The translations under genes and the position numbers were made by a program. Below the pieces are notes generated by a model, which was given only the letters and a program-made list of their open reading frames with translations, did no database searches and was not told the origin of the DNA. From contig CAZACP010000004.1 in NCBI GenBank assembly GCA_964483665.1, positions 7,399 through 71,398 of the forward strand: a stretch of 64,000 bases of DNA, given 5' to 3'. Of this stretch, positions 1-63,138 are shown one piece after another (positions within the stretch are counted from its first letter, which is position 1; every line of letters starts with the position of its first letter). This DNA is from an uncultured Candidatus Saccharibacteria bacterium. GTDB taxonomy: Bacteria > Patescibacteriota > Doudnabacteria > UBA920.

Positions 1-974
1 CCGCTCGCGTAGGCTTTAAAGTGTTTGCGCATTATGAAAAAAGATTTTTGGCCGCCCAGCTTTTCCTGAAACAATTTAGCATGCTCAAGAGCAACCGTTA
101 GTCGTTCCTTTACTGATGGTTGATAGTTGTCTTCGCGGAACATCCAGGGAAAGCCAAAAGCGCCTCTTGCTATCATAACTCCGTCGCAGCCTGTTTCTGC
201 CATTCGCGACAAGCCTTCCGTGCGAGACTTAACATCGCCATTGCCAATAATTAAAGTTTTTGATTGTAAAGTATTTCTAACATTAACAGCTTTTTTTACC
301 TCGACCCAACTAGCAGGCACTTTGCTTTTTTCTTGCTTGGTTCTTGCGTGCAAAGTTATAGCCGCCAAATTATGTTTGAGCAAATGTCCTATCCAGATTT
401 CGGTTTCAGGTTTAGAATATCCGGTTCTTGTTTTTACAGAGACCGGCAAACTACCAGCTCCTTTTATGGTTGCTTCGATGATCTCTGATGCCAAAACTGG
501 ATTGCGAATTAAAGCCGCGCACGCTCCTATGCCAATTTCCTTGTCCTGCGGGCAGCCCATATTTATATCTATGCCGTCAAAACCTAAATTCACCATTAAC
601 TTACTCGCTTCATAAAACTTTTCCGGGTCAGTCCCCCATATTTGCGCAACTATTGGCCTTTGATTTTCCGTGTATTCCAAATCTATTTTAAGCCGCTCAA
701 AACCAGTAGGATGCAGTATGCCATCCACATTTATAAACTCAGTAAACATAACGAACGCATTGCCTTTTTTTGTCTCCTCCTCCCCTGGCGAGGGGAGGAT
801 GCCCGATAGGGCAGGAGAGGTTGCTGTGGTCGTGTTATCGTTATTGTTATGAGTAATAGTTTTTACTCCCCCGCTATACTTAGCAAACATTTCCCTAAAC
901 ACCACGTCTGTAACTTCTTCCATAGGTGCTAGACAAAAAATGGGTCTATTAAGTTGTTGCCAAAAGTTAGACAT
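1..974 (-). CDS. dus: tRNA-dihydrouridine synthase (partial; 3' end beyond window start)
   Basis: The minus-strand frame is open from the window edge to an ATG at 972-974. The N-terminus MSNFWQQLNRPIFCLAPMEEVTDVVFREMF matches the LAPMxxVTDxxFR motif of Dus enzymes. It is absent from the ORF track because it has no in-window stop. It contains a roughly 35-aa low-complexity in-frame insert. Confidence 0.8.
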   Translation of the reverse strand, partial: MSNFWQQLNRPIFCLAPMEEVTDVVFREMFAKYSGGVKTITHNNNDNTTTATSPALSGILPSPGEEETKKGNAFVMFTEFINVDGILHPTGFERLKIDLEYTENQRPIVAQIWGTDPEKFYEASKLMVNLGFDGIDINMGCPQDKEIGIGACAALIRNPVLASEIIEATIKGAGSLPVSVKTRTGYSKPETEIWIGHLLKHNLAAITLHARTKQEKSKVPASWVEVKKAVNVRNTLQSKTLIIGNGDVKSRTEGLSRMAETGCDGVMIARGAFGFPWMFREDNYQPSVKERLTVALEHAKLFQEKLGGQKSFFIMRKHFKAYAS

Positions 975-6203: not shown

Positions 6204-6241
6204 CTCTCTCTCCAAGACTTGGAGAGAGCCGGAGAGAGATT
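6204..6241. repeat. Family A palindromic element (CTCTCTCCAAGACTTGGAGAGAG core)
   Basis: It shares its core with the copies at 24627, 45092, 45512 and 63043 and with the intragenic copies. Confidence 0.7.
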
Positions 6242-14675: not shown

Positions 14676-14789
14676 CGTCCTGGTATTTTTAAAAAATACG
14701 AAATACGAAACAAACTAAAAATTCTAATTTATGAATTTTAAAAACTAAAATTTTTCGAATTTCGGATTTAGTGCTTCGAATTTTTAGCT

Positions 14790-17175: not shown

Positions 17176-18153
17176 TTACAGCTTCACTATTGCCCTTAAT
17201 TTAGCGGGCTTTGAGCGAGGATTATTTTTTAATTCGTTTTCAGAAGCAGTTACTATTTTTTTGGTTAATATTTTTCCTTGAGGATTTTTGCCACACACAC
17301 ATTGAGGGAAATCTATTGGGCATACGCAGCCTTTACTTAAGCTATTAAAGTATTGTTTTACTATTCTGTCTTCAAGCGAATGGAAGCTTACTATTACTAG
17401 CCTGCCGCCCGGGTTTAAAAGGTCAAAACTTTTTGGCAAAAACTCTTCTAAGGCTTCCAGCTCATGGTTAACCGCTATTCTTAAGGCTTGAAATATTCTT
17501 CTGGCTGAATCATCGGCGCGATGTTTTACAGGCTTAGGAAGTGAATCATGGATTATTTGATAGAGTTCTGTTGTATAGCGGATTTGGCTCTTAGATCTTG
17601 ATTCTTGGATCTTCCTTGCTATCTGGCGGCTAAACTTTTCCTCACCGTAATCGCTAAATATTTTACTAAGCTCCTGTTCGCTTCTGTTATTTAGTAAAAA
17701 ACTTGCGTCTTCGGGTTTAGTTTGATCAAACCGCATGTCTAGCGGCTCTTTTTTCTGAAAGCTAAATCCCCGCCCAGACTGGTCAAGTTCATATGACGAA
17801 AGTCCCAAATCTGCAACAATGCCTGAAATATTATTAAACTCATGTTCTTTTGTTATTTTGTTTATGTTTTGAAAATTGCCGTGCACCGCTATCACTCCCT
17901 CTCCCTCTGGGAGAGGGCCGGGGTGAGGGTGTTTGATATTTGTCCGCCAGTTTGCGGATTGAAATTTGAAATTCTCAATCGCATCCTTGTCCAAATCTAT
18001 AACCAACAACTTGCCGCCCGGAGATATTTTTTGCAAGATCGTCTTACTATACCCTCCTCCGCCTAGCGTCGCGTCGACAAAATTCTCACCGGGCTTAGGG
18101 TTAAGAAAGTAAATAACTTCCTCAAGTAATACTGGAATATGTTCATAATTCAT
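17176..18153 (-). CDS. rsmH: 16S rRNA (cytosine1402-N4)-methyltransferase RsmH/MraW
   Basis: MNYEHIPVLLEEV...DATLGGGGYS and a C-terminal FHSLEDRIVK. It contains an in-frame repeat-derived insert. Confidence 0.85.
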   Translation of the reverse strand: MNYEHIPVLLEEVIYFLNPKPGENFVDATLGGGGYSKTILQKISPGGKLLVIDLDKDAIENFKFQSANWRTNIKHPHPGPLPEGEGVIAVHGNFQNINKITKEHEFNNISGIVADLGLSSYELDQSGRGFSFQKKEPLDMRFDQTKPEDASFLLNNRSEQELSKIFSDYGEEKFSRQIARKIQESRSKSQIRYTTELYQIIHDSLPKPVKHRADDSARRIFQALRIAVNHELEALEEFLPKSFDLLNPGGRLVIVSFHSLEDRIVKQYFNSLSKGCVCPIDFPQCVCGKNPQGKILTKKIVTASENELKNNPRSKPAKLRAIVKL

Positions 18154-21568: not shown

Positions 21569-21666
21569 AGTAAGCGATCCTAACCTACGAATGCATCCGA
21601 ATTATCCGAATACTTAATTATTTAGACTTCGGGTCATTCGGATAAAGTTCGGATTGTTAGCGTCGG

Positions 21667-24626: not shown

Positions 24627-24670
24627 TTCCCTCTCCAAGACTTGGAGAGGGTTAGGGAAAGGTTGATGAT
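24627..24670. repeat. Family A element (CCCTCTCCAAGACTTGGAGAGGG TTAGGGAAAGGTTG)
   Basis: Matches the cores at 63043 and 6204. Confidence 0.7.
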
Positions 24671-25534: not shown

Positions 25535-26968
25535 TTACCTTTTAAAACTCTTCCCCGGCCTTATGGAAATATCACCATCGTTATCAACTTCCTTAACTCT
25601 CCCAAAACCTACGCTGTCCCTAAATACTTTCCCTGCCTTTAAAACCGGGGCGTAAGACAAAGTAAATTTGCCGTATTTGGCGTTTACAACATCTATCGCG
25701 CGAGTAAGCGAAGCTTTGGCCGTTTGTTTTTTAAACAAAGACTGCTGAAGAATAAAAGGCTTAAGGCCTGCTACGGTAACGCCTATTAATTTACAATTGG
25801 CGATGATTTTATGTATATCGGTATAATTCTTTATAATATGCCTGGCTTCCCAAAATAAATCCCTTGCGTCAAAAATATCGGTAGACAATTTTGCAGAATG
25901 CCCGTAACTGTTATAATCGCCGTCGCGCACATACGCCACCACAATATTGCCCATTAATTTTTTGCGCCTAAGCCTCTCCCCCACCATTTCGCAAAGCTTG
26001 TATAAAACCGGCTCAAAAAATTCCGGCTTTCTGTATTCCTTAGGCAGAGTATACATATGGCCGATTGATTTTATACTTTCATCAAAATTCACTTTTGCTT
26101 TCCAGCTACCGCTTAACTGTCCCATATGGTGAAGGTGATAGCCGTTAATGCCAAACACTCGCACCAGTTTGCTTAAGGGGTAATCGCGCAGCTCTTTTAA
26201 AGTTTTTATGCCAAGTTCGTTTAACCTTTTTTCCTGCCTTTTGGCTATACCCGGTATGTCGGTAAGTTTAAGACGAGTATAAAGATCTTCTTTGGTTAGA
26301 TTTAAAACCCCATTTGATATTTGAAATTTGATATTTGAAATTAGCACTATTCCATCCGGCTTTTTTAAATCACTCGCAATTTTTGCTAGGAGTTTGTTCT
26401 CCGCAATACCTATGCTGCAAGTTAAATAATCCCCCACTTCTTTTTTCATTCGTTTTTTTATTTCCACAGCTACCCTAACCGCTTCTTGCCAAGGATTGGC
26501 CAATAAATAATCTTTAATTTCTGCCATATAAAAATATGGGTGTTCTATATTTTGAAATTTGGATTTTAAAATTTGTCCGCCAGCTGGCGGATTATTTAAA
26601 AATTTAAAATTTAAAATTGGAAATTTAACATTACAGCTTGCTGTAATGTCCACATACGCTTCATCTATGCTGGCCGGCTCAACAAAATTGCTGTAGTCCC
26701 TTAAAACTTTTAAAAACCGGCGATGATACTCCCTGTAAGCATCGGCCCTTGTATGCACCAAAATAATTTTAGGATACAGCTTTTTAGCTTCCCAGACCGG
26801 CGTGCCGGTCTTTATGCCCCAGCGCTTGGCTTCTATGCTGGCGGCAATAATAATGCCGCCCAAATGTTCGCACACGCCTAAAACCTTGCCGCGGTACTCT
26901 TTATTGTCTTGCTGCTCCACCGAGGCAAAATAGCTGTTCATATCTAAATGCAAAATTACATTTTGCAT
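25535..26968 (-). CDS. dinB: DNA polymerase IV (Y-family)
   Basis: MQNVILHLDMNSYFASVE...SIDEAYVDIT...CSIGIAENKLLAKIAS. It carries two in-frame repeat-derived inserts. Confidence 0.85.
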   Translation of the reverse strand: MQNVILHLDMNSYFASVEQQDNKEYRGKVLGVCEHLGGIIIAASIEAKRWGIKTGTPVWEAKKLYPKIILVHTRADAYREYHRRFLKVLRDYSNFVEPASIDEAYVDITASCNVKFPILNFKFLNNPPAGGQILKSKFQNIEHPYFYMAEIKDYLLANPWQEAVRVAVEIKKRMKKEVGDYLTCSIGIAENKLLAKIASDLKKPDGIVLISNIKFQISNGVLNLTKEDLYTRLKLTDIPGIAKRQEKRLNELGIKTLKELRDYPLSKLVRVFGINGYHLHHMGQLSGSWKAKVNFDESIKSIGHMYTLPKEYRKPEFFEPVLYKLCEMVGERLRRKKLMGNIVVAYVRDGDYNSYGHSAKLSTDIFDARDLFWEARHIIKNYTDIHKIIANCKLIGVTVAGLKPFILQQSLFKKQTAKASLTRAIDVVNAKYGKFTLSYAPVLKAGKVFRDSVGFGRVKEVDNDGDISIRPGKSFKR

Positions 26969-27788: not shown

Positions 27789-27880
27789 ACAAAATTTTAG
27801 TGTTCGACTTCATGGAGAACCTAAAATTTTATCTTAAATACTCAATATTGTTCTCCACGAGGTCGAACAATATTCCGGTT
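27789..27880. repeat. Family H element (AAAATTTTAGTGTTCGACTTCATGGAGAACC + inverted partial copy)
   Basis: Same family as 42511-42552 and 42893-42964. No gene is enclosed. Confidence 0.6.
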
Positions 27881-32018: not shown

Positions 32019-33746
32019 TTAAGATGATAACTGCCTAATATCTATAATTCTTAACTTTAATTGCTTATTCCCGTTCCATTCATCTTGCAATAATTCACAG
32101 GCTAAATCTAACTCTTGGCCTATTTGTAAACTGCTGTCTTTAGGCCCAAAATTAAAAGCGATGCAGGAAATTTGTCTGTTGCCTAAAGAAATTTTCATTT
32201 GCAAATGCTGTGCTTTTTGTCCCACAGCCCGCTTACTTAATATTTTAGCATTTTTCAGCAAAAATTTTGGTTTCGGGTTGCCAACCCCAAAAGGCTCTAA
32301 GGAAGCAATCAAGTTGTAAGTTGTAAGTTGTAAGTCTTCGGAGGAAAGTTCTGCGTCAATATTTAAAACAGGCCCGTCATCTTCTTCCATATTCTTTTCC
32401 GCAAAATCCAAAACGCTTTGGTAAAATATTTCAAAATTTTCCGTTTGCAAGGTAAGCCCCGCCGCCTGCTTATGCCCGCCATAGCGGATTAAATGCTGGC
32501 CGGAATATTTTAAAGCCTCAACTACATTAAATTCCCCCGCGCTTCTGGCCGACCCGGTCGCTTCAAACTCCCCCTTCTCCAGCACAATTGTGGGTTTATA
32601 AAATTCTTCGGCTAATTTGCCCGCAACTAACCCCACAACGCCTTTATGCCAACTTTCCCCCATTAACACCAAAACCTTCCTGTGAAGTATTCCTTGGGCT
32701 TTTTCTCTCGCTTCGCTCATTATCCGCGCTGTTATTTCCTGCCTTCGCAAATTTATTTCTTCAATATTTTGAGCTTGAATTTTTGCCTTTAAGGGATCGT
32801 TTTCTAACAAAAGTTCCAGGGCAACATTAGCGTGTTCAAGCCTTCCAGCCGCGTTTATCCTTGGTGCAATTACAAAACCTAAGGAATAAGTATCCAGCGG
32901 CTGCTTTGCAGGATCCAGCTTTGCTAAATCCATTAAAGCCCTAAGCCCAACCCACTTTGTTTTAGCTAAAACTTTAAGGCCATACTTAACAAAAATTCTA
33001 TTCTCGCCTATAAGCTTATGACAGTCAGCCACTGTGCCTATAGCCACAAGGTCTAATAGCCACTTTTCCCACCCTTGGGATGATTTCGGATTTCGTCCGC
33101 CAGCTGGCGGATCGGATTTCGGATTTTGCAGCAATGCCTGAGCGAGTTTAAAAGCCACGCCGACCCCAACAATTTGGTCATCCGGATAATTATCGTCTTG
33201 ATTTTTAGGGTTTATAAGCGCTAAAGCGTTTGGTAAATTTCCAATAATTTCATGGTGGTCGGTAATAATTAAGTCTATGTTATTTTCCTTGCACCATTCT
33301 GCGGCATCTACAGAATTTGTGCCGCAGTCCACGGTAATTATTACTTTTGAACCATGTTCTTTAATTTTTTTTAAGGCGTCTAAATTTACCCCGTACCCTT
33401 CCAAAAAACGGTCGGGTATATAACTTTCACAGTCCGCGCCCAAATAATTAAAGGCTTGGCGCAAAACCGCATTAGCGGTTATGGCGTCTGCGTCATAGTC
33501 GCCGTAAATAGTAATTTTTTCTTTATTCTCTATTGCCTGCCATATCCTGTTAACGGCTTTTTCCATATCGCGGAATAAAAACGGGCTATTAAGCCCTGTA
33601 GTATAGTCCGCGTTAATAAATTTTTTTATTTCTTCCGGTTCCTTAAGGCCGCGATCAAAAAGCAATTGCCTTAAAAGGACCGGGTAATCTTTATAAACTT
33701 CTTCCAGTTCTGTCGGAATATTGGGTTTTAATTTCCAAATTTTCAT
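32019..33746 (-). CDS. recJ: Single-stranded-DNA-specific exonuclease RecJ
   Basis: DHH motifs (YGDYDADAITANAVL and IITDHHE) and a DHHA1 domain. It has two in-frame repeat inserts. Confidence 0.85.
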   Translation of the reverse strand: MKIWKLKPNIPTELEEVYKDYPVLLRQLLFDRGLKEPEEIKKFINADYTTGLNSPFLFRDMEKAVNRIWQAIENKEKITIYGDYDADAITANAVLRQAFNYLGADCESYIPDRFLEGYGVNLDALKKIKEHGSKVIITVDCGTNSVDAAEWCKENNIDLIITDHHEIIGNLPNALALINPKNQDDNYPDDQIVGVGVAFKLAQALLQNPKSDPPAGGRNPKSSQGWEKWLLDLVAIGTVADCHKLIGENRIFVKYGLKVLAKTKWVGLRALMDLAKLDPAKQPLDTYSLGFVIAPRINAAGRLEHANVALELLLENDPLKAKIQAQNIEEINLRRQEITARIMSEAREKAQGILHRKVLVLMGESWHKGVVGLVAGKLAEEFYKPTIVLEKGEFEATGSARSAGEFNVVEALKYSGQHLIRYGGHKQAAGLTLQTENFEIFYQSVLDFAEKNMEEDDGPVLNIDAELSSEDLQLTTYNLIASLEPFGVGNPKPKFLLKNAKILSKRAVGQKAQHLQMKISLGNRQISCIAFNFGPKDSSLQIGQELDLACELLQDEWNGNKQLKLRIIDIRQLSS

Positions 33747-33749
33747 TGA

Positions 33750-33830
33750 GTAGTTGGTAGTTGGTAGTTGGTAGTTGGTAGCCCAAATTGCTCCGGCTAC
33801 TTACTACTTTACTACCTACTACTTACTAAA
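33750..33830. repeat. Family D element: (TAGTTGG)4 array - spacer - (CTACTTA)n array
   Basis: Read directly from the sequence. The second copy is at 62515-62590. Confidence 0.65.
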
Positions 33831-42510: not shown

Positions 42511-42552
42511 GCAAATAATAGTGTTCGACCTTGTGGAGAACCTATTATTTGC
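42511..42552. repeat. Family H element (solo unit GCAAATAATAGTGTTCGACCTTGTGGAGAACCTATTATTTGC)
   Basis: 10-bp flanking stem around the conserved core. Confidence 0.6.
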
Positions 42553-42879: not shown

Positions 42880-42892
42880 TGCTTAAAAATTT

Positions 42893-42964
42893 TAGTGTTC
42901 GAGCTTGTCGAGAACCCAAAATTTTACGTACTTAATAGTATCACAAGGTCGAATAATATTAAGT
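42893..42964. repeat. Family H element (direct copy plus inverted partial copy)
   Basis: ttttagtgttcgagcttgtcgagaacccaaaatttt ... tcacaaggtcgaataatatt. Confidence 0.6.
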
Positions 42965-45091: not shown

Positions 45092-45131
45092 TTCCCTCCC
45101 CTCCTAAGGGGAGGGATTAAGGGAGAGGTTG
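45092..45131. repeat. Family A element (CCCTCCCCTCCTAAGGGGAGGG ATTAAGGGAGAGGTTG)
   Basis: Read directly from the sequence. Confidence 0.65.
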
Positions 45132-45135
45132 TATT

Positions 45136-45501
45136 TTAAAACCCGCATGCTTCTTTTATTTTACTTAAAACTCCTTGAATATTTGTGTCTATTTCATTAT
45201 TCCAAAATCTTAAAACTTTGTAGCCTATTTTTTCTGCGTACTGTTGTTTTCGCTTATCGTAAGCCGATATTTCTTGCTCGCTGTGCTGTCCTCCGTCTGC
45301 CTCCACTAAGAGCATTTTCTCTTTACAACTAAAATCATAAATATACTGTCCAATTTGCATTTGACGCTTAAATTTTAACCCATAAAACCTACCAGCTCTT
45401 AAATAATACCAAAGCTTGCTTTCCCAAGGAGTCTGATTTTTTCTTAGGCTTCGGGAATTGGTTAAATATGGCTCTGGTATAACTCTTTTGGCAGTATCCA
45501 T
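45136..45501 (-). CDS. DUF559 endonuclease-domain protein (Vsr-like fold)
   Basis: YGLKFKRQMQIGQYIYDFSCKEKMLLVEADGGQHS...YKVLRFWNNEI. Confidence 0.75.
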   Translation of the reverse strand: MDTAKRVIPEPYLTNSRSLRKNQTPWESKLWYYLRAGRFYGLKFKRQMQIGQYIYDFSCKEKMLLVEADGGQHSEQEISAYDKRKQQYAEKIGYKVLRFWNNEIDTNIQGVLSKIKEACGF

Positions 45502-45511
45502 ATGTTTTTAG

Positions 45512-45620
45512 TCTCTCCCCTTTTAAGGGGAGATGTCACGAGTGTATCCGAGTGACAAAGAGGTTGTATACTACATCTACTGCAACCTCTCCCTAACCCT
45601 CTCCTTAAAAGGAGAGGGTA
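45512..45620. repeat. Family A composite element (4 hairpins: CTCCCC/GGGGAG, GTCAC/GTGAC, GAGGTTG/CAACCTC, CCCTCTCC/GGAGAGGG)
   Basis: Same stem set as 63043-63138 in inverted orientation, but with different loops. Confidence 0.7.
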
Positions 45621-45645
45621 CCTGTAAAGATATCGTACGTTTCTT

Positions 45646-53237: not shown

Positions 53238-53285
53238 TCATTTTTGTCATTTTTGTCAATTATTTAATTTTTGTCATTGGTTTTA
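53238..53285. repeat. Family G tandem TTTTGTCATT motifs
   Basis: tcatttttgtcatttttgtcaattatttaatttttgtcatt. Confidence 0.5.
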
Positions 53286-54857
53286 TTCAATTATTTCCCC
53301 GCCAAAAATTTTCAGCGCGTCACTTAAAACCGCAACTGGGTTTTGCCCTTCCGTAATTTTGTCAGGCAATTCTCCAACAATGCCCAAATTTTTACCGCTA
53401 ACCTCTGTTATTTCCTGGGTAATAAAATTTAAGTTTTTTTCAATAGTTTTTTTATCAAACTGATATTTTACGCTTATTACAATTTTTCCGTTATTTACGC
53501 CAATTATTTGGGCTGCCTTAAGCATACTACCTAGGGGGCCGTTTTTGTCTTTAATTCTAAGAACGACTTTTGGCCAAAAATCTAAAACTTCTTTCAAACT
53601 AACATTTTGGTCAAGCCGGCTTAAAATTTCGCTTTGCGGTTCTAAATCAGGCTTTATAGACTCTTGATTTTGCACTTTGATAATCGGCTGTTCGGTTACT
53701 TCTGTTTTTTCCCTTTGTGGTGCTGGAATTATATTATTTGGCTTTTTTTTTAAAGCCCCTTCAATCGCGGCAAGCAAAAGGGGTATTTCAGGACTGGGAG
53801 CGCCTTGCAGATCTTTAAACGACTTTAAAAACAGCCGGATTATAAAAATAATCTCGCTAATGCTTAAATTCTGTAAAACCCCCTCATTCTGCCCTGTAAT
53901 TTTTTTAACCATTAAGACTCTTAAGTGTTCTAAGAAATCTTTGTTAAAAGCGTTAAAATCAACTCCGGCTTCCAGCAAACGGTCAAAATATTCCGGAATT
54001 TCATTGGCCTTTCCTTCAGAAATAAGCTCTGTAAGTTCAGCTAACAGTGCTGTGTCCGTGATTCCTAAAATTGTTCTAATGTCGCCCAACGAAGTGCTGT
54101 TCCCCAGAGTTGAAATCTTGTCTAAAATAGAAAGCGCGTCGCGCATTCCGCCGCCCGCGTTTTGGGCGACTAAATCTAAAACTTCTTCCGGGTAGCTTAA
54201 ATTCTCTTTGTTTACAATATTTTTTAAATGCTCTTTAATATCTGCCGCTGAATATGCTTTAAAATCAAACCGCTGGGTGCGGGAAATTATAGTAGCCGGA
54301 ACTTTTTGAATTTCCGTGGTAGCCAGAATAAATATAGCGTGTTTGGGAGGTTCTTCTAAAGTTTTTAAAAGCGCGTTAAAAGCGCCTTTGGAAAGCATAT
54401 GCACTTCGTCTATTATAAATACTTTATATTTGCCTAAGGTTGGAGAAAATTTAACGTGGTCAATAATATCCCTGACATTGTCTACCCCGGTATTGGAAGC
54501 CGCGTCTATTTCTATTAGGTCAATAAAGTTGTTGTTTTCAATTGCCTTGCAAACACTGCACTCCCCGCACGCATCCCCCAAAGCACCAGGCGAAGCCTGT
54601 ACATTATTTTTCTCCCCATCTGGGGGGAGATGTCCGGCCGACAGGGCGGATAGAGAGGGTTGATTATTCAGACAGTTAACGCTTTTTGCGAATATCCTAG
54701 CCACGCTGGTTTTTCCAACTCCTCTGCTGCCAATAAATAAATAAGCATGGGCAAAAGCACCCCCGGCGATTTGGTTTTTAAGGGTTTTAATTATTGCTTT
54801 TTGACCAACAACCTGAGCAAAAGTTTGAGGTCTATATTTTCGGTAAAGTACAGCCAT
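53283..54857 (-). CDS. dnaX: DNA polymerase III subunit gamma/tau
   Basis: MAVLYRKYRPQTF...GSRGVGKTS...DEVHML and a zinc module CGECSVC. A repeat-derived insert sits next to the zinc module. Confidence 0.85.
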   Translation of the reverse strand: MAVLYRKYRPQTFAQVVGQKAIIKTLKNQIAGGAFAHAYLFIGSRGVGKTSVARIFAKSVNCLNNQPSLSALSAGHLPPDGEKNNVQASPGALGDACGECSVCKAIENNNFIDLIEIDAASNTGVDNVRDIIDHVKFSPTLGKYKVFIIDEVHMLSKGAFNALLKTLEEPPKHAIFILATTEIQKVPATIISRTQRFDFKAYSAADIKEHLKNIVNKENLSYPEEVLDLVAQNAGGGMRDALSILDKISTLGNSTSLGDIRTILGITDTALLAELTELISEGKANEIPEYFDRLLEAGVDFNAFNKDFLEHLRVLMVKKITGQNEGVLQNLSISEIIFIIRLFLKSFKDLQGAPSPEIPLLLAAIEGALKKKPNNIIPAPQREKTEVTEQPIIKVQNQESIKPDLEPQSEILSRLDQNVSLKEVLDFWPKVVLRIKDKNGPLGSMLKAAQIIGVNNGKIVISVKYQFDKKTIEKNLNFITQEITEVSGKNLGIVGELPDKITEGQNPVAVLSDALKIFGGEIIE

Positions 54858-55012
54858 AAGAAAGATACTCGGATATTCATTGATATTACATATTAAGTGG
54901 GAAAGATTAATATCCCAATATCTAATATCCTTATTGGATTATACCACCGTCTTACATAAAAACAAAAAACCCATACTTCTGGGTTTATAATATCAAAATA
55001 TCCAATATATAT

Positions 55013-61220: not shown

Positions 61221-62510
61221 TTAAAAGCCCTCATAGTCATGCATTGTCAACTGTGCTTCGATTTTCTTGATTATTTCTATAACCACGGACACCACAATCA
61301 ATAACGAAGTACCGCCCAAAGTTAAGGCCTTGGTTCCGGTTAAATTTTGGGCAACTAGAGGCAGAATAGCAATAATTGCTAAAAATACTGCACCGGCTAA
61401 AGTAATGCGGTTAAGCACAGAAGACAAATAGTCAGCAGTTTGAGCTCCGGGCCTAAGTCCCGGAATGAAGCCGCCATTTTTTTGCACATTTTCGGCAATT
61501 TCCTGAGGGTTAAAGACTACGGCAGTATAAAAATAAGTAAAGCCTAGTATCATAAGGAAGTAAACAATGCCGTAAAACCAGGTGCCGGTGTCATTAAACA
61601 AGGCAATGGTTTTTTGCGCATAGTTAGCAATAAGTGCGCTTTTTGCATTTACAAAGAACTGGGCTATCATTGCGGGAAACAGCATTATGGAAATAGCAAA
61701 AATTATAGGAATAACTCCGGCTTGGTTAAGGCGCAAAGGCAAATGGGTATTAACGCCGCCAAAAAGCCTGTTGCCCCTAACGCGCTTAGCGTAAGCAACC
61801 GGGATATTGCGCTGAGCCTCTGTTACCAAAACCACTCCGGCAATAACGGCTAAGAATACCAAGACAAAGCCGACAATAGTAGGAACTGCGTCCGGATTAC
61901 CCTGATAAATTTGGTAAGCTTGGGAAATGGCGCTCGGGACTCTGGATACAATACCGGCAAAAATAACCAAAGAAATTCCATTGCCAATGTCGAATTCAGA
62001 CATAATTTCACCAATCCACATTATTAACATAGTGCCGGCAGTTACAGAAAGCAAAACCAAAAACCATTGAAAAGGAGAAAAAGTTCCTAAAATTGATCCG
62101 GCTCCCTGGCTGGAAAGAAGCCTAATGGTGCCAAAAGCCTGAAGCGGGGCAAGCGGAATGGTTAAATAGCGGGTGTACTGGTTAAGCTGAGCCCTGCCGG
62201 CTTCCCCACCTTCCTTTTGCATTTCAGCAAAAGAAGGAACTATTATGGTTAAAAGCTGCATTATAATGCTGGCAGTAATGTACGGGCCAACGCCAAGCAT
62301 GGCAATAGAAAAATTAGTCAAACCTCCGCCGGAAAAAACATCAAGCAAATTTAAAAACTGACTCTGCTGAAAAAAAGCTTTAAGCCCGGTTGGGTCTATA
62401 CCCGGAATGGGTATGTGAGTTAAAACCCGCGTAACTAACAAAAGACCAAGCACAATTAAAATTTTGTTGCGTAGGTCTTTGGTTTTCCAAATAAGTAGGA
62501 TTTTGTTCAT
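61221..62510 (-). CDS. secY: Preprotein translocase subunit SecY
   Basis: 429 aa with 10 TM helices. It follows rplO. Confidence 0.9.
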   Translation of the reverse strand: MNKILLIWKTKDLRNKILIVLGLLLVTRVLTHIPIPGIDPTGLKAFFQQSQFLNLLDVFSGGGLTNFSIAMLGVGPYITASIIMQLLTIIVPSFAEMQKEGGEAGRAQLNQYTRYLTIPLAPLQAFGTIRLLSSQGAGSILGTFSPFQWFLVLLSVTAGTMLIMWIGEIMSEFDIGNGISLVIFAGIVSRVPSAISQAYQIYQGNPDAVPTIVGFVLVFLAVIAGVVLVTEAQRNIPVAYAKRVRGNRLFGGVNTHLPLRLNQAGVIPIIFAISIMLFPAMIAQFFVNAKSALIANYAQKTIALFNDTGTWFYGIVYFLMILGFTYFYTAVVFNPQEIAENVQKNGGFIPGLRPGAQTADYLSSVLNRITLAGAVFLAIIAILPLVAQNLTGTKALTLGGTSLLIVVSVVIEIIKKIEAQLTMHDYEGF

Positions 62511-62514
62511 TATG

Positions 62515-62590
62515 TAGTTGGTAGTTGGTAGTTGATAGTTGGTAGCCGAACATTGCCTGACTACTTACTACTTACTACTTCACTAATCGC
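62515..62590. repeat. Family D element (TAGTTGG array - spacer - CTACTTA array)
   Basis: It overlaps the last 8 codons of rplO. Confidence 0.65.
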
Positions 62591-63042: not shown

Positions 63043-63138
63043 TCCCTCTCCAAGACTTGGAGAGGGTTAGGGAGAGGTTGAAAATTATTAACCTCTCTGT
63101 CACCTTTCGGGTGACATCTCCCCAAGCTTTCGGGAGAA
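63043..63138. repeat. Family A composite element in the rpsE-rplO spacer (where rpmD/L30 would normally be)
   Basis: ccctctccaagacttggagaggg ttag ggagaggttg..aacctctct gtcacctttcgggtgac atctcccc.. Confidence 0.7.

What the first reader, a model, noticed from the sequence alone, without database searches (positions are those of the whole stretch)
54611..54665. DnaX zinc-module region expanded by a family A insert
Between AKSVNC and DACGECSVC the protein has LNNQPSLSALSAGHLPPDGEKNNVQASPGALG, encoded by CTCCCCATCTGGGGGGAG + GTCCGGCCGACAGGGCGGAT + AGAGAGGGTTG. The clamp-loader subunit is essential, so the insert must be tolerated structurally.
Basis: partly seen in the sequence, partly recalled or inferred. 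Interest (0 to 1): 0.6.

Follow-up and report, generated by a model that had tools for sequence, protein, structure and literature searches.

The report
Mobile triplex-motif repeat inside DnaX
A short dispersed DNA repeat (a BoxC-like "triplex motif" with an extra hairpin nested in it) sits in frame inside the zinc-binding loop of the essential clamp-loader gene dnaX of a Patescibacteria genome, and the same repeat turns up at that spot in a scattered set of relatives and borders a small DUF559 endonuclease gene, which suggests it is the end of a tiny mobile element.

Summary
dnaX is window 53283-54857 (- strand). There are 34 residues between the first and second zinc cysteines (C62, C97), against 7-13 in 64 unrelated bacteria. 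About 27 residues (nt 54579-54662) have no counterpart in E. coli gamma.

The "family A" reading is supported. The insert has the architecture of the published BoxC/PIT/TMECO intrastrand-triplex motif: a C-rich arm, a loop, a G-rich arm, and a mirrored second G-rich arm. Here the second loop holds a nested hairpin. A strict finder gives 8 copies in the window and none in 20 shuffles.

The same element occupies this loop in 15 of 121 Patescibacteria orthologues, scattered almost randomly on the tree. Alleles about 95% identical outside the loop differ by a clean 24-residue indel. The insert is better conserved as DNA than its coding flanks and keeps its hairpins through compensatory changes. 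AlphaFold2 models it as low-confidence coil.

The conserved core occurs more than 138 times in metagenomes from several phyla, including in frame in other enzymes.

New lead: DUF559 (Vsr-fold endonuclease) genes are flanked by these motifs in Patescibacteria, Deinococcus, Neisseria, cyanobacteria, alphaproteobacteria and E. coli ycjD. The dnaX insert is probably a solo end of such an element, tolerated as a passenger.

The parts
53283..54857 (-). dnaX (DNA polymerase III gamma/tau clamp-loader subunit), 524 aa, intact reading frame through the insert.
   Evidence: ORF list. Pfam DNA_pol3_delta2, AAA, lid and gamma3 domains. PDB 1NJF at 4e-69. AF2 mean pLDDT 83.8 and Foldseek match to E. coli gamma/tau. 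Conserved synteny GtrA - dnaX - 554-aa gene - HtrA - RuvX in related contigs.
54570..54671 (-). Codons 63-96, the loop between zinc ligands C62 and C97 (C97-x2-C100-x2-C103 follows). It is 34 aa instead of the usual 8.
   Evidence: C62, C97, C100 and C103 are invariant in 106 aligned homologues.
54579..54662 (-). The inserted element ('type 1'), written on the coding strand: CAA + CCCTCTCT (pyrimidine third arm) + A + nested hairpin + CA + TCTCCCC-CCAGAT-GGGGAGA + A-rich spacer + hairpin CAGGC-TTC-GCCTG + GTGCTTTG. It encodes Q66-L93.
   Evidence: Coordinates. Aligned with 10 other dnaX copies. Clean 24-aa indel between near-identical alleles.
54611..54630 (+). Main hairpin of the triplex motif: C-rich arm TCTCCCC (54611-54617), loop ATCTGG, G-rich arm GGGGAGA (54624-54630).
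   Evidence: The arm pairs are kept in 98.7% of cells across 11 dnaX copies, with one compensatory pair.
54633..54650 (+). Nested hairpin in loop 2 (TCCGGCCGACAGGGCGGA). It is imperfect in this genome. In other dnaX copies it is a perfect hairpin of a different sequence.
   Evidence: There are 69 distinct sequences among 138 metagenome copies at this position, nearly all hairpins: mean 4.7 bp against 2.1 bp in shuffles.
54652..54659 (+). Second G-rich arm AGAGAGGG. It is a mirror of GGGGAGA and a candidate third strand of a purine-motif triplex. It is followed by TTG, the family's tail.
   Evidence: third arm with at most 1 mismatch to the mirror. Motif definition in PMC4666352.
54587..54599 (+). 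Third small hairpin, CAGGC-GAA-GCCTG on the + strand, conserved in dnaX copies.
   Evidence: Two compensatory pair changes (CGGGC/GCCCG in L087, AAGGC/GCCTT in L085).
63044..63137 (+). Intergenic inverted pair: a plain motif (63044-63076, tail to 63082) facing a type-1 copy (63090-63137). It is MITE-like and looks like a DUF559 cassette with the ORF removed.
   Evidence: Folds as four hairpins with z = -7.3.
45094..45625 (-). DUF559 endonuclease gene (45136-45501, - strand, 121 aa) bounded by motif copies at 45094-45127, 45512-45565 (type 1) and 45587-45618. This is a candidate autonomous unit of the family.
   Evidence: The protein is identical to the L082 gene annotated PF04480 DUF559. The cassette is absent from the same rpe-tkt spacer in L084.
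6206..6238 (+). Intergenic plain copy of the motif.
24629..24661 (+). Intergenic plain copy of the motif.
17897..17973 (-). In-frame composite insert in RsmH/MraW (heptamer repeats + hairpin + plain motif; peptide QSANWRTNIKHPHPGPLPEGEG).
778..819 (-). In-frame type-1-like copy in a dihydrouridine synthase gene (peptide TSPALSGILPSPGEE).

Best explanation
Window 54579-54662 is a copy of a dispersed small repeat, not ancestral DnaX sequence.

What it is. The repeat belongs to the BoxC / 'potential intrastrand triplex' / TMECO class: a C-rich arm, a loop, a complementary G-rich arm, a short loop, and a second G-rich arm that mirrors the first. This sub-type ('type 1') carries an extra hairpin nested in the second loop.

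Where it sits. It lies in frame in the surface loop between the first and second cysteine ligands of the DnaX zinc module, with the C-rich strand as sense strand. It is translated into about 27 extra residues that are predicted to be a flexible coil. The four cysteines and the AAA+ fold stay in place, so the essential protein keeps working. That last step is inferred.

How it behaves across relatives. The loop is a permissive and repeatedly hit site. Related lineages carry the same element there, or a plain motif, a different GC hairpin (the 'PPAGG' type), or translated 7-nt tandem arrays. Nearly identical alleles differ by a clean presence/absence of the element. So gain, or precise loss, is recent and recurrent.

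Where it comes from. The most likely source is a family of tiny mobile units. In these genomes a ~120-aa DUF559 (Vsr-fold, PD-(D/E)XK) endonuclease gene is bracketed by inverted copies of the motif and sits at different genomic positions. ORF-less inverted pairs and solo ends, like the dnaX copy, would be its non-autonomous derivatives.

Shown versus inferred. Shown: family membership, recurrence, nucleotide-level conservation, and the DUF559 association. Inferred: that DUF559 is the mobilising enzyme, how insertion happens, and that the peptide is functionally neutral.
For: Architecture and copy number.
- 8 strict motif copies in the window against 0 in 20 shuffles, with the dnaX copy among them.
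- Type-1 intergenic copies at 63090-63137 and 45512-45565 align arm by arm with the dnaX copy.
- The motif matches the published pattern CCCTCNCCC-N3-6-GGGNGAGGG-N3-GGGNGAGGG (PMC4666352).

Not ancestral.
- The loop is 7-13 aa in 64 unrelated bacteria.
- It ranges from 8 to 53 aa among the 120 closest homologues, with several unrelated insert types.
- E. coli gamma has no counterpart for residues 64-90.

Recurrent and recent.
- 15 carriers need 13 Fitch steps on the NJ tree (bootstrap range 11-14; random labels give 14.3).
- WINDOW+P0001+P0002 form a clade in 200/200 bootstraps, and P0002 lacks the element.
- P0017/P0091 and P0019/P0095 are near-identical except for a clean 24-aa indel.

Nucleic-acid-level signal.
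- The 3' 63 nt of the insert are 76-98% identical between lineages. The most conserved 167 flanking codons are 69-80% identical, with 43-62% identity at third positions of identical codons.
- The identity peak is confined to the insert.
- Hairpins are 98.5% paired, with 3 compensatory pairs (1 of 500 shuffles does as well).
- The nested hairpin changes sequence but stays paired.

Same element elsewhere.
- At least 138 copies in 120 metagenome contigs, only 1 of them in dnaX.
- In frame in a MiaB-like enzyme, a glycosyltransferase and CobQ.
- In frame in Dus and RsmH of this window.
- A plain motif plus heptamer array in the dnaX loop of P0042.

Tolerance.
- AF2 mean pLDDT is 83.8, but about 50-53 and coil for residues 71-90.

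DUF559 link.
- 10 of 17 non-dnaX motif copies lie within 80 nt of DUF559 genes, which with their 80-nt flanks cover 1.5% of 207 kb (binomial P ~ 9e-15).
- The cassettes sit at different positions in different genomes, and L084 provides an empty site.
- DUF559 genes of Deinococcus, Neisseria, Synechocystis, Azospirillum, Sinorhizobium, Pseudanabaena and E. coli ycjD all have flanking motifs. Background density is 0.022 sites per kb.
Against: - No near-identical second copy of the dnaX element exists in the 64-kb window, so recent transposition within this genome is not shown.
- No target-site duplication could be defined.
- DNA of the 'empty' sister alleles (P0091, P0095, P0063) could not be obtained, so gain versus precise loss and the exact boundaries are unresolved.
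- All dnaX copies share one site, one orientation and a third hairpin (CAGGC-TTC-GCCTG) that I did not see in non-dnaX copies. This could mean one origin followed by spread through recombination between dnaX alleles, or a function specific to dnaX.
- Only 4 of 120 metagenome contigs with the element also hold a DUF559 gene, and the Rhizobiales plasmid copies examined are solo. The endonuclease link is therefore an association only.
- Holder et al. found no association of TMECO with mobile elements in E. coli.
- The NJ tree is crude.
- The background density for the cross-phylum test comes from other genomes.
Confidence: 0.75

Rival explanations
1. The segment is a cis-acting nucleic-acid element kept in dnaX for a function at this locus. 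Candidates are an mRNA structure that paces translation of domain I, or a DNA structure (hairpins or a transient triplex) that modulates replication or transcription, or that promotes local variation.
For: - Hairpins are maintained by compensatory change.
- The insert is more conserved than synonymous sites of its flanks.
- Orientation and position are constant in all 15 carriers.
- A third hairpin was seen only in dnaX copies.
- TMECO loci are reported as unstable (PMC4666352).
Against: - Presence/absence differs between alleles about 95% identical outside the loop.
- P0002, the nearest relative outside the window's own P0001 cluster, lacks it.
- The window's own copy has a decayed nested hairpin and folds only weakly (z = -1.4 and -2.0).
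- The same core sits in unrelated genes and spacers.
- TMECO showed no promoter or terminator activity and no stable triplex in vivo in E. coli.
Confidence: 0.12
2. The segment is a lineage-specific functional extension of the DnaX protein, for example a new interaction surface on the zinc module, maintained by selection on the peptide.
For: - The peptide motif PSLS..GHLP..GE...VQASPDALG is conserved in 15 homologues.
- It is always in frame and in one orientation.
- It sits in an essential gene.
Against: - The distribution on the tree is close to random, and there are indels between near-identical alleles.
- Conservation extends to synonymous positions and follows base pairing.
- The residues encoded by the nested hairpin vary freely.
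- The same DNA occurs in intergenic spacers and is read in other frames in other genes.
- AF2 gives low-confidence coil.
Confidence: 0.07
3. The expansion arose in situ by replication slippage or template switching on a short seed in the loop (AATCCGAAA in the ancestral xNPKDGDA loop). It would then resemble the repeat family only by convergence of low-complexity sequence.
For: - Many relatives carry translated 7-nt tandem arrays in this loop, and arrays precede the element in L085, L086, L089 and L213.
- Slippage at such motifs is discussed by Holder et al..
Against: - A 27-nt core identical to copies in other phyla cannot arise by convergence; the chance expectation for the pattern is far below 1, and at least 138 copies were found.
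- Identity between lineages is about 85% over 63 nt.
- The copy aligns arm by arm with the intergenic copies.
- Slippage may explain the heptamer arrays, but not the element.
Confidence: 0.04
4. Assembly or sequencing artefact (a chimeric join inside dnaX).
For: None specific. The element is GC-rich and hairpin-forming, which can disturb assemblers.
Against: - The 96%-identical protein P0001, with the identical loop, is found on 20 contigs from several samples.
- Ten further independent assemblies carry the element at the same codon with the frame intact.
Confidence: 0.01

Closest known systems
BoxC / PIT / TMECO intrastrand triplex motif (Bergler 1992; Hoyne & Maher 2000; Holder et al. 2015, PMC4666352)
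   Same: - Three-arm architecture: a C-rich arm, a loop, a complementary G-rich arm, a short loop, and a mirrored G-rich arm.
- Nearly the same arm sequence (CCCTCTCC / GGAGAGGG / GGGAGAGG).
- Multi-copy and dispersed, and sometimes found as inverted pairs.
- Loci show presence/absence variation between close relatives.
   Different: - In E. coli the motif is reported as always intergenic, with a 3-nt second loop and no link to mobile DNA.
- Here the copy is in frame in an essential gene, and the second loop holds an 18-nt nested hairpin.
- The host is a Patescibacteria genome.
- The motifs bracket DUF559 genes.
Rickettsia palindromic elements (RPE; Ogata et al. 2000, from my own knowledge; mentioned in PMC1458961 and PMC10969869)
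   Same: - A short palindromic repeat inserted in frame into many unrelated protein-coding genes, including housekeeping ones.
- It is translated and tolerated at surface positions.
- It is patchy among relatives.
   Different: - No sequence relationship was tested or is expected.
- RPEs are 100-150 bp and restricted to Rickettsiales.
- This element is 35-85 nt, has a triplex-type three-arm design, and its core is shared across phyla.
REP / REPIN elements mobilised by RAYT transposases (PMC3733652, PMC3116915)
   Same: - Small GC-rich hairpins, solo or in inverted pairs.
- Dispersed in many copies.
- Thought to be non-autonomous partners of a single-copy enzyme gene that they flank.
   Different: - The defining GTAG or CGTC tag is absent; the nested hairpin is bounded by TGTC...GACA.
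- The flanked gene is a DUF559 Vsr-fold nuclease, not an IS200/IS605-type Y1 transposase.
- REPs are extragenic.
Cyanobacterial heptamer arrays (STRR) with nested small dispersed repeats (Elhai et al. 2008, from my own knowledge; cited in PMC3116915)
   Same: - 7-nt tandem arrays combined with very small hairpin repeats that insert into one another and into the arrays.
- The nested, modular organisation seen here in the dnaX, RecJ, DinB and RsmH inserts.
   Different: - Described in Nostoc, mostly outside genes.
- No triplex-type arm and no associated endonuclease gene were described.
Free-standing or intron-borne homing endonucleases of the Vsr/DUF559 fold (e.g. I-Bth0305I, listed with DUF559 in PMC3424549)
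   Same: - A small nuclease gene of this fold acting as selfish DNA.
- The same target is occupied recurrently in different lineages.
- The indels are clean.
   Different: - The dnaX insert carries no ORF.
- No co-conversion of the flanks is seen.
- Activity of these DUF559 proteins is unknown.

Membership tests
DnaX (gamma/tau) clamp-loader subunit | AAA+ domain I-II, domain III, and a zinc module C-x(n)-C-x2-C-x2-C after the Walker A helix. | tested here: met
   Pfam domains. PDB 1NJF at 4e-69 with C62, C97, C100 and C103 aligned around E. coli C64, C73, C76 and C79. The cysteines are invariant in 106 homologues. Fold match with target-normalised TM-score 0.81-0.88.
BoxC / TMECO intrastrand triplex motif | A C-rich arm and a complementary G-rich arm separated by a 3-6 nt loop. 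| tested here: met
   TCTCCCC-ATCTGG-GGGGAGA at 54611-54630: a 7-nt arm with a 6-nt loop. The published arms are 9 nt.
BoxC / TMECO intrastrand triplex motif | A second G-rich arm that mirrors the first (third-strand candidate), with at most one mismatch. | tested here: met
   AGAGAGGG against the mirror of GGGGAGA passes the finder's limit of one mismatch over 7 nt.
BoxC / TMECO intrastrand triplex motif | The second loop is about 3 nt. | tested here: not met
   Loop 2 is 21 nt and contains its own hairpin. The plain copies in the window have 3-5 nt. The dnaX copy is therefore a variant of the class.
BoxC / TMECO intrastrand triplex motif | Multi-copy and dispersed in the genome, more than chance. 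| tested here: met
   8 copies in 64 kb against 0 in 20 shuffles. 25 copies in 207 kb of related loci.
BoxC / TMECO intrastrand triplex motif | Intergenic location (as reported for E. coli). | tested here: not met
   This copy and those in Dus and RsmH are inside intact ORFs.
BoxC / TMECO intrastrand triplex motif | The single strand folds into a stable triplex in vitro. | not testable with these tools
   ViennaRNA models only Watson-Crick hairpins. CD or NMR on the oligonucleotide is needed.
Selfish palindromic repeats inside protein-coding genes (RPE-like behaviour) | The same repeat is found in frame in several unrelated genes and also in spacers. | tested here: met
   In the window: dnaX, Dus and RsmH. 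Elsewhere: a MiaB-like enzyme, a GT1 glycosyltransferase and CobQ. Spacer copies.
Selfish palindromic repeats inside protein-coding genes (RPE-like behaviour) | Sequence homology to Rickettsia RPE families. | not tested
   No RPE sequences were compared. The claim is 'works like', not membership.
REP / REPIN-RAYT | A conserved GTAG or CGTC tetranucleotide at the foot of the palindrome. | tested here: not met
   The feet read TGTC...GACA in 138 copies, by the construction of the search pattern, and in the window copies.
REP / REPIN-RAYT | A RAYT (Y1 transposase) gene flanked by the repeats. | not tested
   The window proteins were not all scanned. The gene found flanked by the repeats is DUF559.
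MITE | Terminal inverted repeats bounding a short non-coding unit. | tested here: met
   63044-63137 is an inverted pair with a 9-nt centre and folds with z = -7.3.
MITE | Target-site duplication. | tested here: inconclusive
   The filled (window) versus empty (L084) rpe-tkt spacers are too diverged to read a duplication. No empty-allele DNA was available for dnaX.
DUF559-encoding mobile cassette (proposed here) | A DUF559 ORF bracketed by inverted motif copies. | tested here: met
   The window and 5 independent Patescibacteria loci, and 6 other taxa plus E. coli ycjD.
DUF559-encoding mobile cassette (proposed here) | Different genomic positions in related genomes, and an empty site. | tested here: met
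   After dnaX in L081 and L088. Between rpe and tkt in the window, L082 and L085. After htrA in L090. An empty rpe-tkt spacer in L084.
DUF559-encoding mobile cassette (proposed here) | The endonuclease recognises or cleaves the motif and mobilises it. | not testable with these tools
   Needs biochemistry and genetics.

The most novel reading that the evidence does not exclude
BoxC/TMECO-type 'intrastrand triplex' repeats have been known since 1992 without an origin or a mover. In this reading they are, across bacterial phyla, the terminal inverted repeats of a previously unrecognised class of ~0.5-kb mobile elements that encode a DUF559/YcjD Vsr-fold endonuclease, together with the ORF-less pair and solo-end derivatives of those elements. 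In Patescibacteria and some other phyla the derivatives insert in frame into housekeeping genes. They re-occupy one specific loop of the DnaX zinc module in many lineages, in a homing-like or site-preferring way.
Probability: 0.4. Interest if true: 0.85.

Novelty: new variant of a known kind. Interest (0 to 1): 0.62.

Why it matters
For DnaX, the result shows that the loop between the first two zinc ligands can take 8 to 53 residues of essentially arbitrary sequence. That marks it as a free surface loop. It also warns annotators and modellers that such segments in CPR proteins are repeat-derived and not functional domains.

More broadly, it extends the Rickettsia 'selfish DNA inside genes' phenomenon to Patescibacteria and to a different, cross-phylum repeat class.

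The DUF559 association gives a concrete and cheap experiment for two old unknowns at once: what disperses BoxC/TMECO motifs, and what YcjD/DUF559 proteins do. The experiment is nuclease assays on motif DNA, plus a correlation of PF04480 genes with motif counts in complete genomes.

Tried and rejected
- Exact or 3-mismatch searches for the insert's pieces in the window found only the dnaX copy. Membership had to be shown by architecture.
- Rfam gave nothing for the window at gathering thresholds except one tRNA. For six repeat-rich metagenome loci, only sub-threshold chance hits overlapped the element.
I reused those loci as the outgroup for loop length and as background for motif density.
- A peptide-level search for the insert in other proteins failed: the alignment query was too short, and a tandem artificial query returned nothing. 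This is uninformative, not negative.
- A full-text search for the literal sequence strings returned only primer noise.
- The REP/RAYT idea was rejected on the missing GTAG/CGTC tag.
- A dnaX frameshift signal was rejected: the site is at codon ~66-93, not in the gamma/tau region, and the frame is continuous.
- An intein or intron was rejected: the element is 84 nt, has no ORF, and is always a multiple of three and translated in the gene models.
- A long gene-conversion tract between dnaX alleles was rejected for window versus L211, because identity falls to 63-70% right outside the insert.
- The strict motif finder misses the E. coli ycjD TMECO, because there is one purine in its C arm. A relaxed finder finds it.
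Full report
**1. The observation**

The region lies in a 524-aa ORF on the minus strand, 53283-54857. It is DnaX. Pfam finds DNA_pol3_delta2 (2e-42), AAA, the DnaX lid and gamma domain III. E. coli gamma/tau chains are the best solved relatives at 4e-69. An AlphaFold2 model built on 106 homologues has mean pLDDT 83.8 and superposes on E. coli gamma/tau with target-normalised TM-scores up to 0.81, or 0.88 for domains I-II.

The zinc module reads C62, then 34 residues, then C97-x2-C100-x2-C103, and the four cysteines are invariant in 106 homologues.

Three comparisons show the loop is expanded:
- The alignment to E. coli gamma breaks into two blocks and leaves query residues 64-90 without a partner.
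- In 64 dnaX loci from unrelated bacteria the same loop is 7-13 residues, with a mode of 8.
- The insert is 56% G+C in a 39% gene.

**2. What the insert is**

The exact pieces are unique in the window, but the architecture is not. The window holds a family which, on the + strand, reads CCCTCTCC-N7-GGAGAGGG-TT-AGGGAGAGGTTG. Copies start at 6206, 24629, 45094 and 63044, with one on the other strand at 45587.

On the same strand the dnaX segment reads TCTCCCC-ATCTGG-GGGGAGA-TG-[TCCGGCCGACAGGGCGGA]-T-AGAGAGGG-TTG. It has the same three arms and the same tail, with an 18-nt hairpin nested between arm 2 and arm 3. Two intergenic copies of this nested form ('type 1') are in the window:
- 63090-63137 (+): AACCTCTCTG TCACCTTTCGGGTGA CA TCTCCCC...GGGAGA
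- 45512-45565 (-)

Both align arm by arm with the dnaX copy.

A rule-based finder (7-nt pyrimidine arm, perfect stem, third arm the mirror of the second with at most one mismatch) returns eight copies in the window, the dnaX copy among them. It returns none in 20 locally shuffled windows.

I noticed that the third arm is the mirror of the second, which makes it a triplex-compatible strand. I then found that this is a published class: BoxC, also called PIT or TMECO, with the pattern 5'-CCCTCNCCC-N3-6-GGGNGAGGG-N3-GGGNGAGGG-3'. Holder et al. 2015 (PMC4666352) report that it:
- forms a triplex in vitro as a single strand;
- is always intergenic in E. coli;
- sometimes occurs as inverted pairs;
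- has no promoter or terminator activity;
- has no known mover;
- is associated with local genomic instability.

The dnaX copy is a variant of that class, with a hairpin in loop 2.

**3. Relatives: a hypervariable, repeatedly invaded loop**

The closest homologues are from Candidatus Doudnabacteria and other Patescibacteria. Among the best 120, the Cys1-Cys2 loop ranges from 8 residues (37 proteins, consensus xNPKDGDA) to 53. Several kinds of insert occur:
- The type-1 element (PSLS..GHLP..GE...VQASPDALG) in 15 sequences, counting the window.
- A cousin with other arms (HQTPTTPS..GTPPLKGGE).
- The plain motif (SPHPNPPPQGEG).
- A different GC palindrome (PPAGG), which also sits inside RecJ and DinB of this window.
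- Peptides with a 7-residue period, which are translated 7-nt tandem arrays.

DNA from eleven loci confirms this picture. Each type-1 copy is built from these parts, in order:
- an optional heptamer array (AATCAGN or TCGGCGN);
- CCCTCTCTG;
- a hairpin that differs in every lineage but is paired, for example TCCCGATG-GG-CATCGGGA, TCCGCC-GAA-GGCGGA and TCCCGCCC-GC-GGGCGGGA;
- CA;
- TCTCCCCC-AAAA-GGGGGAGA;
- an A-rich spacer;
- CAGGC-TTC-GCCTG.

P0042 has ATCAAGC x3 followed by a textbook plain motif at the same place.

**4. Vertical segment or recurrent insert?**

On an NJ tree of the proteins with the loop masked, the 15 carriers need 13 state changes. The range over 200 bootstraps is 11-14, and random labels give 14.3.

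The window groups with P0001 and P0002 in 200/200 replicates. P0002 is about 72% identical and has an unrelated 17-residue loop. P0013 is about 56% identical overall, yet its insert is 90% identical in protein and 92% identical over the 3' 63 nt of DNA, including the same imperfect nested hairpin.

Most telling are two pairs:
- P0017 and P0091 are virtually identical over the first 360 residues apart from the loop, and differ by a clean 24-residue gap exactly at the element.
- P0019 and P0095 do the same.

P0010's three nearest relatives (distance 0.15-0.19) all have the canonical 8-residue loop.

At the nucleotide level, the 63 nt from CATCT to the end of the loop are 76-98% identical between lineages. 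The best-conserved 167 flanking codons are 69-80% identical, and third positions of identical codons only 43-62%. Along the gene, the identity peak is confined to the insert and drops to 63-70% on both sides. The two fixed hairpins are paired in 98.5% of cells, with three compensatory double changes; 1 of 500 shuffles does as well.

Together this points to constraint or shared ancestry at the nucleic-acid level and to recent, repeated gain or precise loss. It does not fit an old protein segment.

**5. The element outside dnaX**

I scanned the metagenome collection with CTCTCTGTC-N6-30-GACATCTCCCC-N3-8-GGGGAGA, which has 27 fixed bases and a chance expectation far below one.
- The contigs range from 37% to 69% G+C. 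They include rhizosphere, rumen, gut and freshwater material, and Rhizobium, Shinella, Nitratireductor and Neorhizobium plasmids carry the high-GC version in spacers.
- The nested hairpin has 69 different sequences, almost all of them hairpins.
- No Rfam family covers the element.
- Copies lie in frame in real enzymes, confirmed by Pfam: a MiaB-like radical-SAM protein (an inverted pair, so both orientations are readable), a GT1 glycosyltransferase and CobQ.
- By eye only, with no family scan, the element-bearing ORFs of L188, L163 and L117 look like Mfd, MutS2 and SufS. A fifth protein scanned matched only ABC_tran.

In this window, Dus and RsmH carry motif copies, and DinB and RecJ carry heptamer-plus-palindrome inserts. 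All five genes, dnaX included, have intact frames. This is the behaviour described for Rickettsia palindromic elements, but with a different and cross-phylum repeat.

**6. A candidate autonomous form**

In every Patescibacteria locus that holds a DUF559 (PF04480, Vsr-fold PD-(D/E)XK) gene, the gene is bracketed by inverted motif copies. On one side ...GAGAGGTTAAAAT runs into the ATG. On the other side the stop codon runs into TTAACCTCTCTG-hairpin-CATCTCCCC...GGGGAGA.
- Ten of the 17 motif copies outside dnaX lie within 80 nt of such genes, which with their flanks make up 1.5% of the 207 kb examined (binomial P ~ 9e-15).
- The cassette sits at different places: after dnaX in L081 and L088, between rpe and tkt in the window, L082 and L085, and after htrA in L090. 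It is absent from the rpe-tkt spacer of L084.
- The inverted pair at 63044-63137 looks exactly like a cassette with the ORF deleted.

The association holds far outside this phylum. DUF559 genes on replicons of Deinococcus, Neisseria gonorrhoeae, Synechocystis, Azospirillum, Sinorhizobium (a type-1 copy right after the stop codon) and Pseudanabaena (identical copies on both sides) all have motifs within about 200 nt.

E. coli ycjD, its single DUF559 gene, has a TMECO 168 nt downstream, a duplicated ycjD 3' fragment in between, and a motif-like hairpin over its stop codon. From memory, that is the fabI (envM) region where BoxC was first described.

With a background of 0.022 sites per kb in 1.24 Mb of unrelated bacterial DNA, seven of seven has P ~ 2e-13. 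The caveat is that the background comes from other genomes.

I found no paper in the searchable library linking DUF559/YcjD to these repeats. The DUF559 clade is known to include a homing endonuclease.

The link is weaker in the other direction. Only 4 of 120 metagenome contigs with the element also carry a DUF559 gene. If the model is right, most copies are solo.

**7. How it most likely works**

Shown:
- The segment is a member of a dispersed triplex-motif repeat family.
- It is recurrent at this loop.
- It is conserved as nucleic acid.
- The frame and the zinc ligands are intact.
- The modelled insert is low-confidence coil (pLDDT ~50-53 for residues 71-90) between confident flanks.

Inferred:
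- The peptide is a neutral passenger on a surface loop.
- The element reaches new sites through the action of, or by repair after cleavage by, the DUF559 nuclease whose gene it flanks.
- The shared orientation in dnaX reflects a bias relative to replication and transcription. Seven of the eight strict copies in the window have the G-rich strand on the + strand, the window's GC skew is uniformly negative, and nearly all genes are on the - strand.

Unresolved:
- Why this one loop is hit so often. The possibilities are target preference (each dnaX copy is preceded by at least one AATCAG-like heptamer unit, and the ancestral loop contains AATCCGAAA), spread between dnaX alleles by short-tract recombination, or simply the only permissive site in a gene that is always present.
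- Whether the dnaX-specific third hairpin means anything.

**8. Verdict**

Seen alone, the insert is an ordinary tolerated passenger. The context makes it a new variant of a known kind: a BoxC/TMECO-class element with a nested hairpin, in frame in an essential gene, recurrent at one codon position across lineages, and tied to DUF559 genes.

I rate the finding 0.62. The cassette hypothesis, if true, would deserve more.

Noticed in passing
window 778-819 (Dus), 17897-17973 (RsmH/MraW), 26549-26626 (DinB/IMS), 33081-33125 (RecJ): Four more genes of the window carry in-frame repeat inserts. Dus has a type-1-like motif. RsmH has heptamers + hairpin + plain motif. DinB and RecJ have the palindrome ATCCGCCAGCTGGCGGAC (peptide PPAGG) inside 7-nt tandem arrays. 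Pfam alignments show the corresponding domain expansions.
   Followed up: partly
window 45094-45625; L081 11711-12145; L085 18586-18991; L090 5234-5702; L213 17420-17871; L088 9361-9800: A ~120-aa DUF559 endonuclease gene is bracketed by inverted triplex-motif copies and sits at different genomic positions. L084 has an empty rpe-tkt spacer. This is a candidate autonomous mobile unit.
   Followed up: yes
L214 (E. coli K-12 NC_000913.3 1351200-1351450, i.e. L214 5207-5440, - strand): E. coli ycjD (DUF559) is followed by a duplicated fragment of its own 3' end and then a TMECO/BoxC copy. A motif-like hairpin (CCCTCTCCCTGAAAGAGCGAGGGGG) overlaps its stop codon.
   Followed up: partly
L217-L222 (Deinococcus, N. 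gonorrhoeae, Synechocystis, Azospirillum, Sinorhizobium, Pseudanabaena replicons): DUF559 genes in six distant taxa all have triplex-motif copies within about 200 nt. Pseudanabaena has identical inverted copies on both sides. Sinorhizobium has the nested-hairpin form directly after the stop codon.
   Followed up: partly
window 63044-63137: An ORF-less inverted pair (plain motif facing a type-1 copy, 9-nt centre) folds into four consecutive hairpins (z = -7.3). It looks like a DUF559 cassette with the gene deleted.
   Followed up: partly
whole window: Seven of the eight strict motif copies have the G-rich strand on the + strand. GC skew is negative in nearly every 2-kb bin and almost all long ORFs are on the - strand. 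The motifs are therefore strongly oriented relative to replication and/or transcription.
   Followed up: no
window 26313-26342, 14694-14755, 33742-33809 and 62506-62573, 1561-1597 / 21574-21610: There are many 7-nt tandem arrays, such as (TTTGAAA)n, (AAATACG)n, (TAGTTGG)n and (TTCGGAT)n-like, in spacers and genes, often next to GC hairpins. This is reminiscent of cyanobacterial STRR arrays.
   Followed up: no
L082 2296-5912 versus window 54858-55012: The 96%-identical relative has an MmeI-type restriction-modification gene and a Bro-N gene between the GtrA-like gene and dnaX, and the window lacks both. The MmeI ORF itself carries an in-frame plain motif (PHPNPLPEGEG, L082 4844-4874).
   Followed up: no
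P0017 vs P0091, residues ~385-410 (linker between domain III and the C-terminal domain): Besides the 24-aa element indel, these near-identical DnaX alleles differ by a second indel with a heptad-like peptide (GRKVGES ENRKVGA KENQK). This suggests a 7-nt array expansion in the linker.
   Followed up: no
L086 6548-7339; L213 12390-13259: RuvX is fused to a PDDEXK_3 domain in two related genomes. Free PDDEXK_3 and 23S_rRNA_IVP small genes also occur nearby (L085 16410-16631, L213 14679-15068, L087 11507-11872). These are other small, possibly selfish ORFs.
   Followed up: no
window 27791-27831, 42512-42552, 42886-42926: A separate three-copy repeat, TAGTGTTCGA(N8-9)GAGAACC(T/C)A, flanked by A/T-rich inverted arms. 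It is not related to the triplex motif.
   Followed up: no
L088 7209-8882 (P0094): In this dnaX copy the nested hairpin position holds about 70 nt containing a further perfect hairpin (CTCAGGG-TGA-CCCTGAG). The element itself can therefore be a target for further nesting.
   Followed up: no
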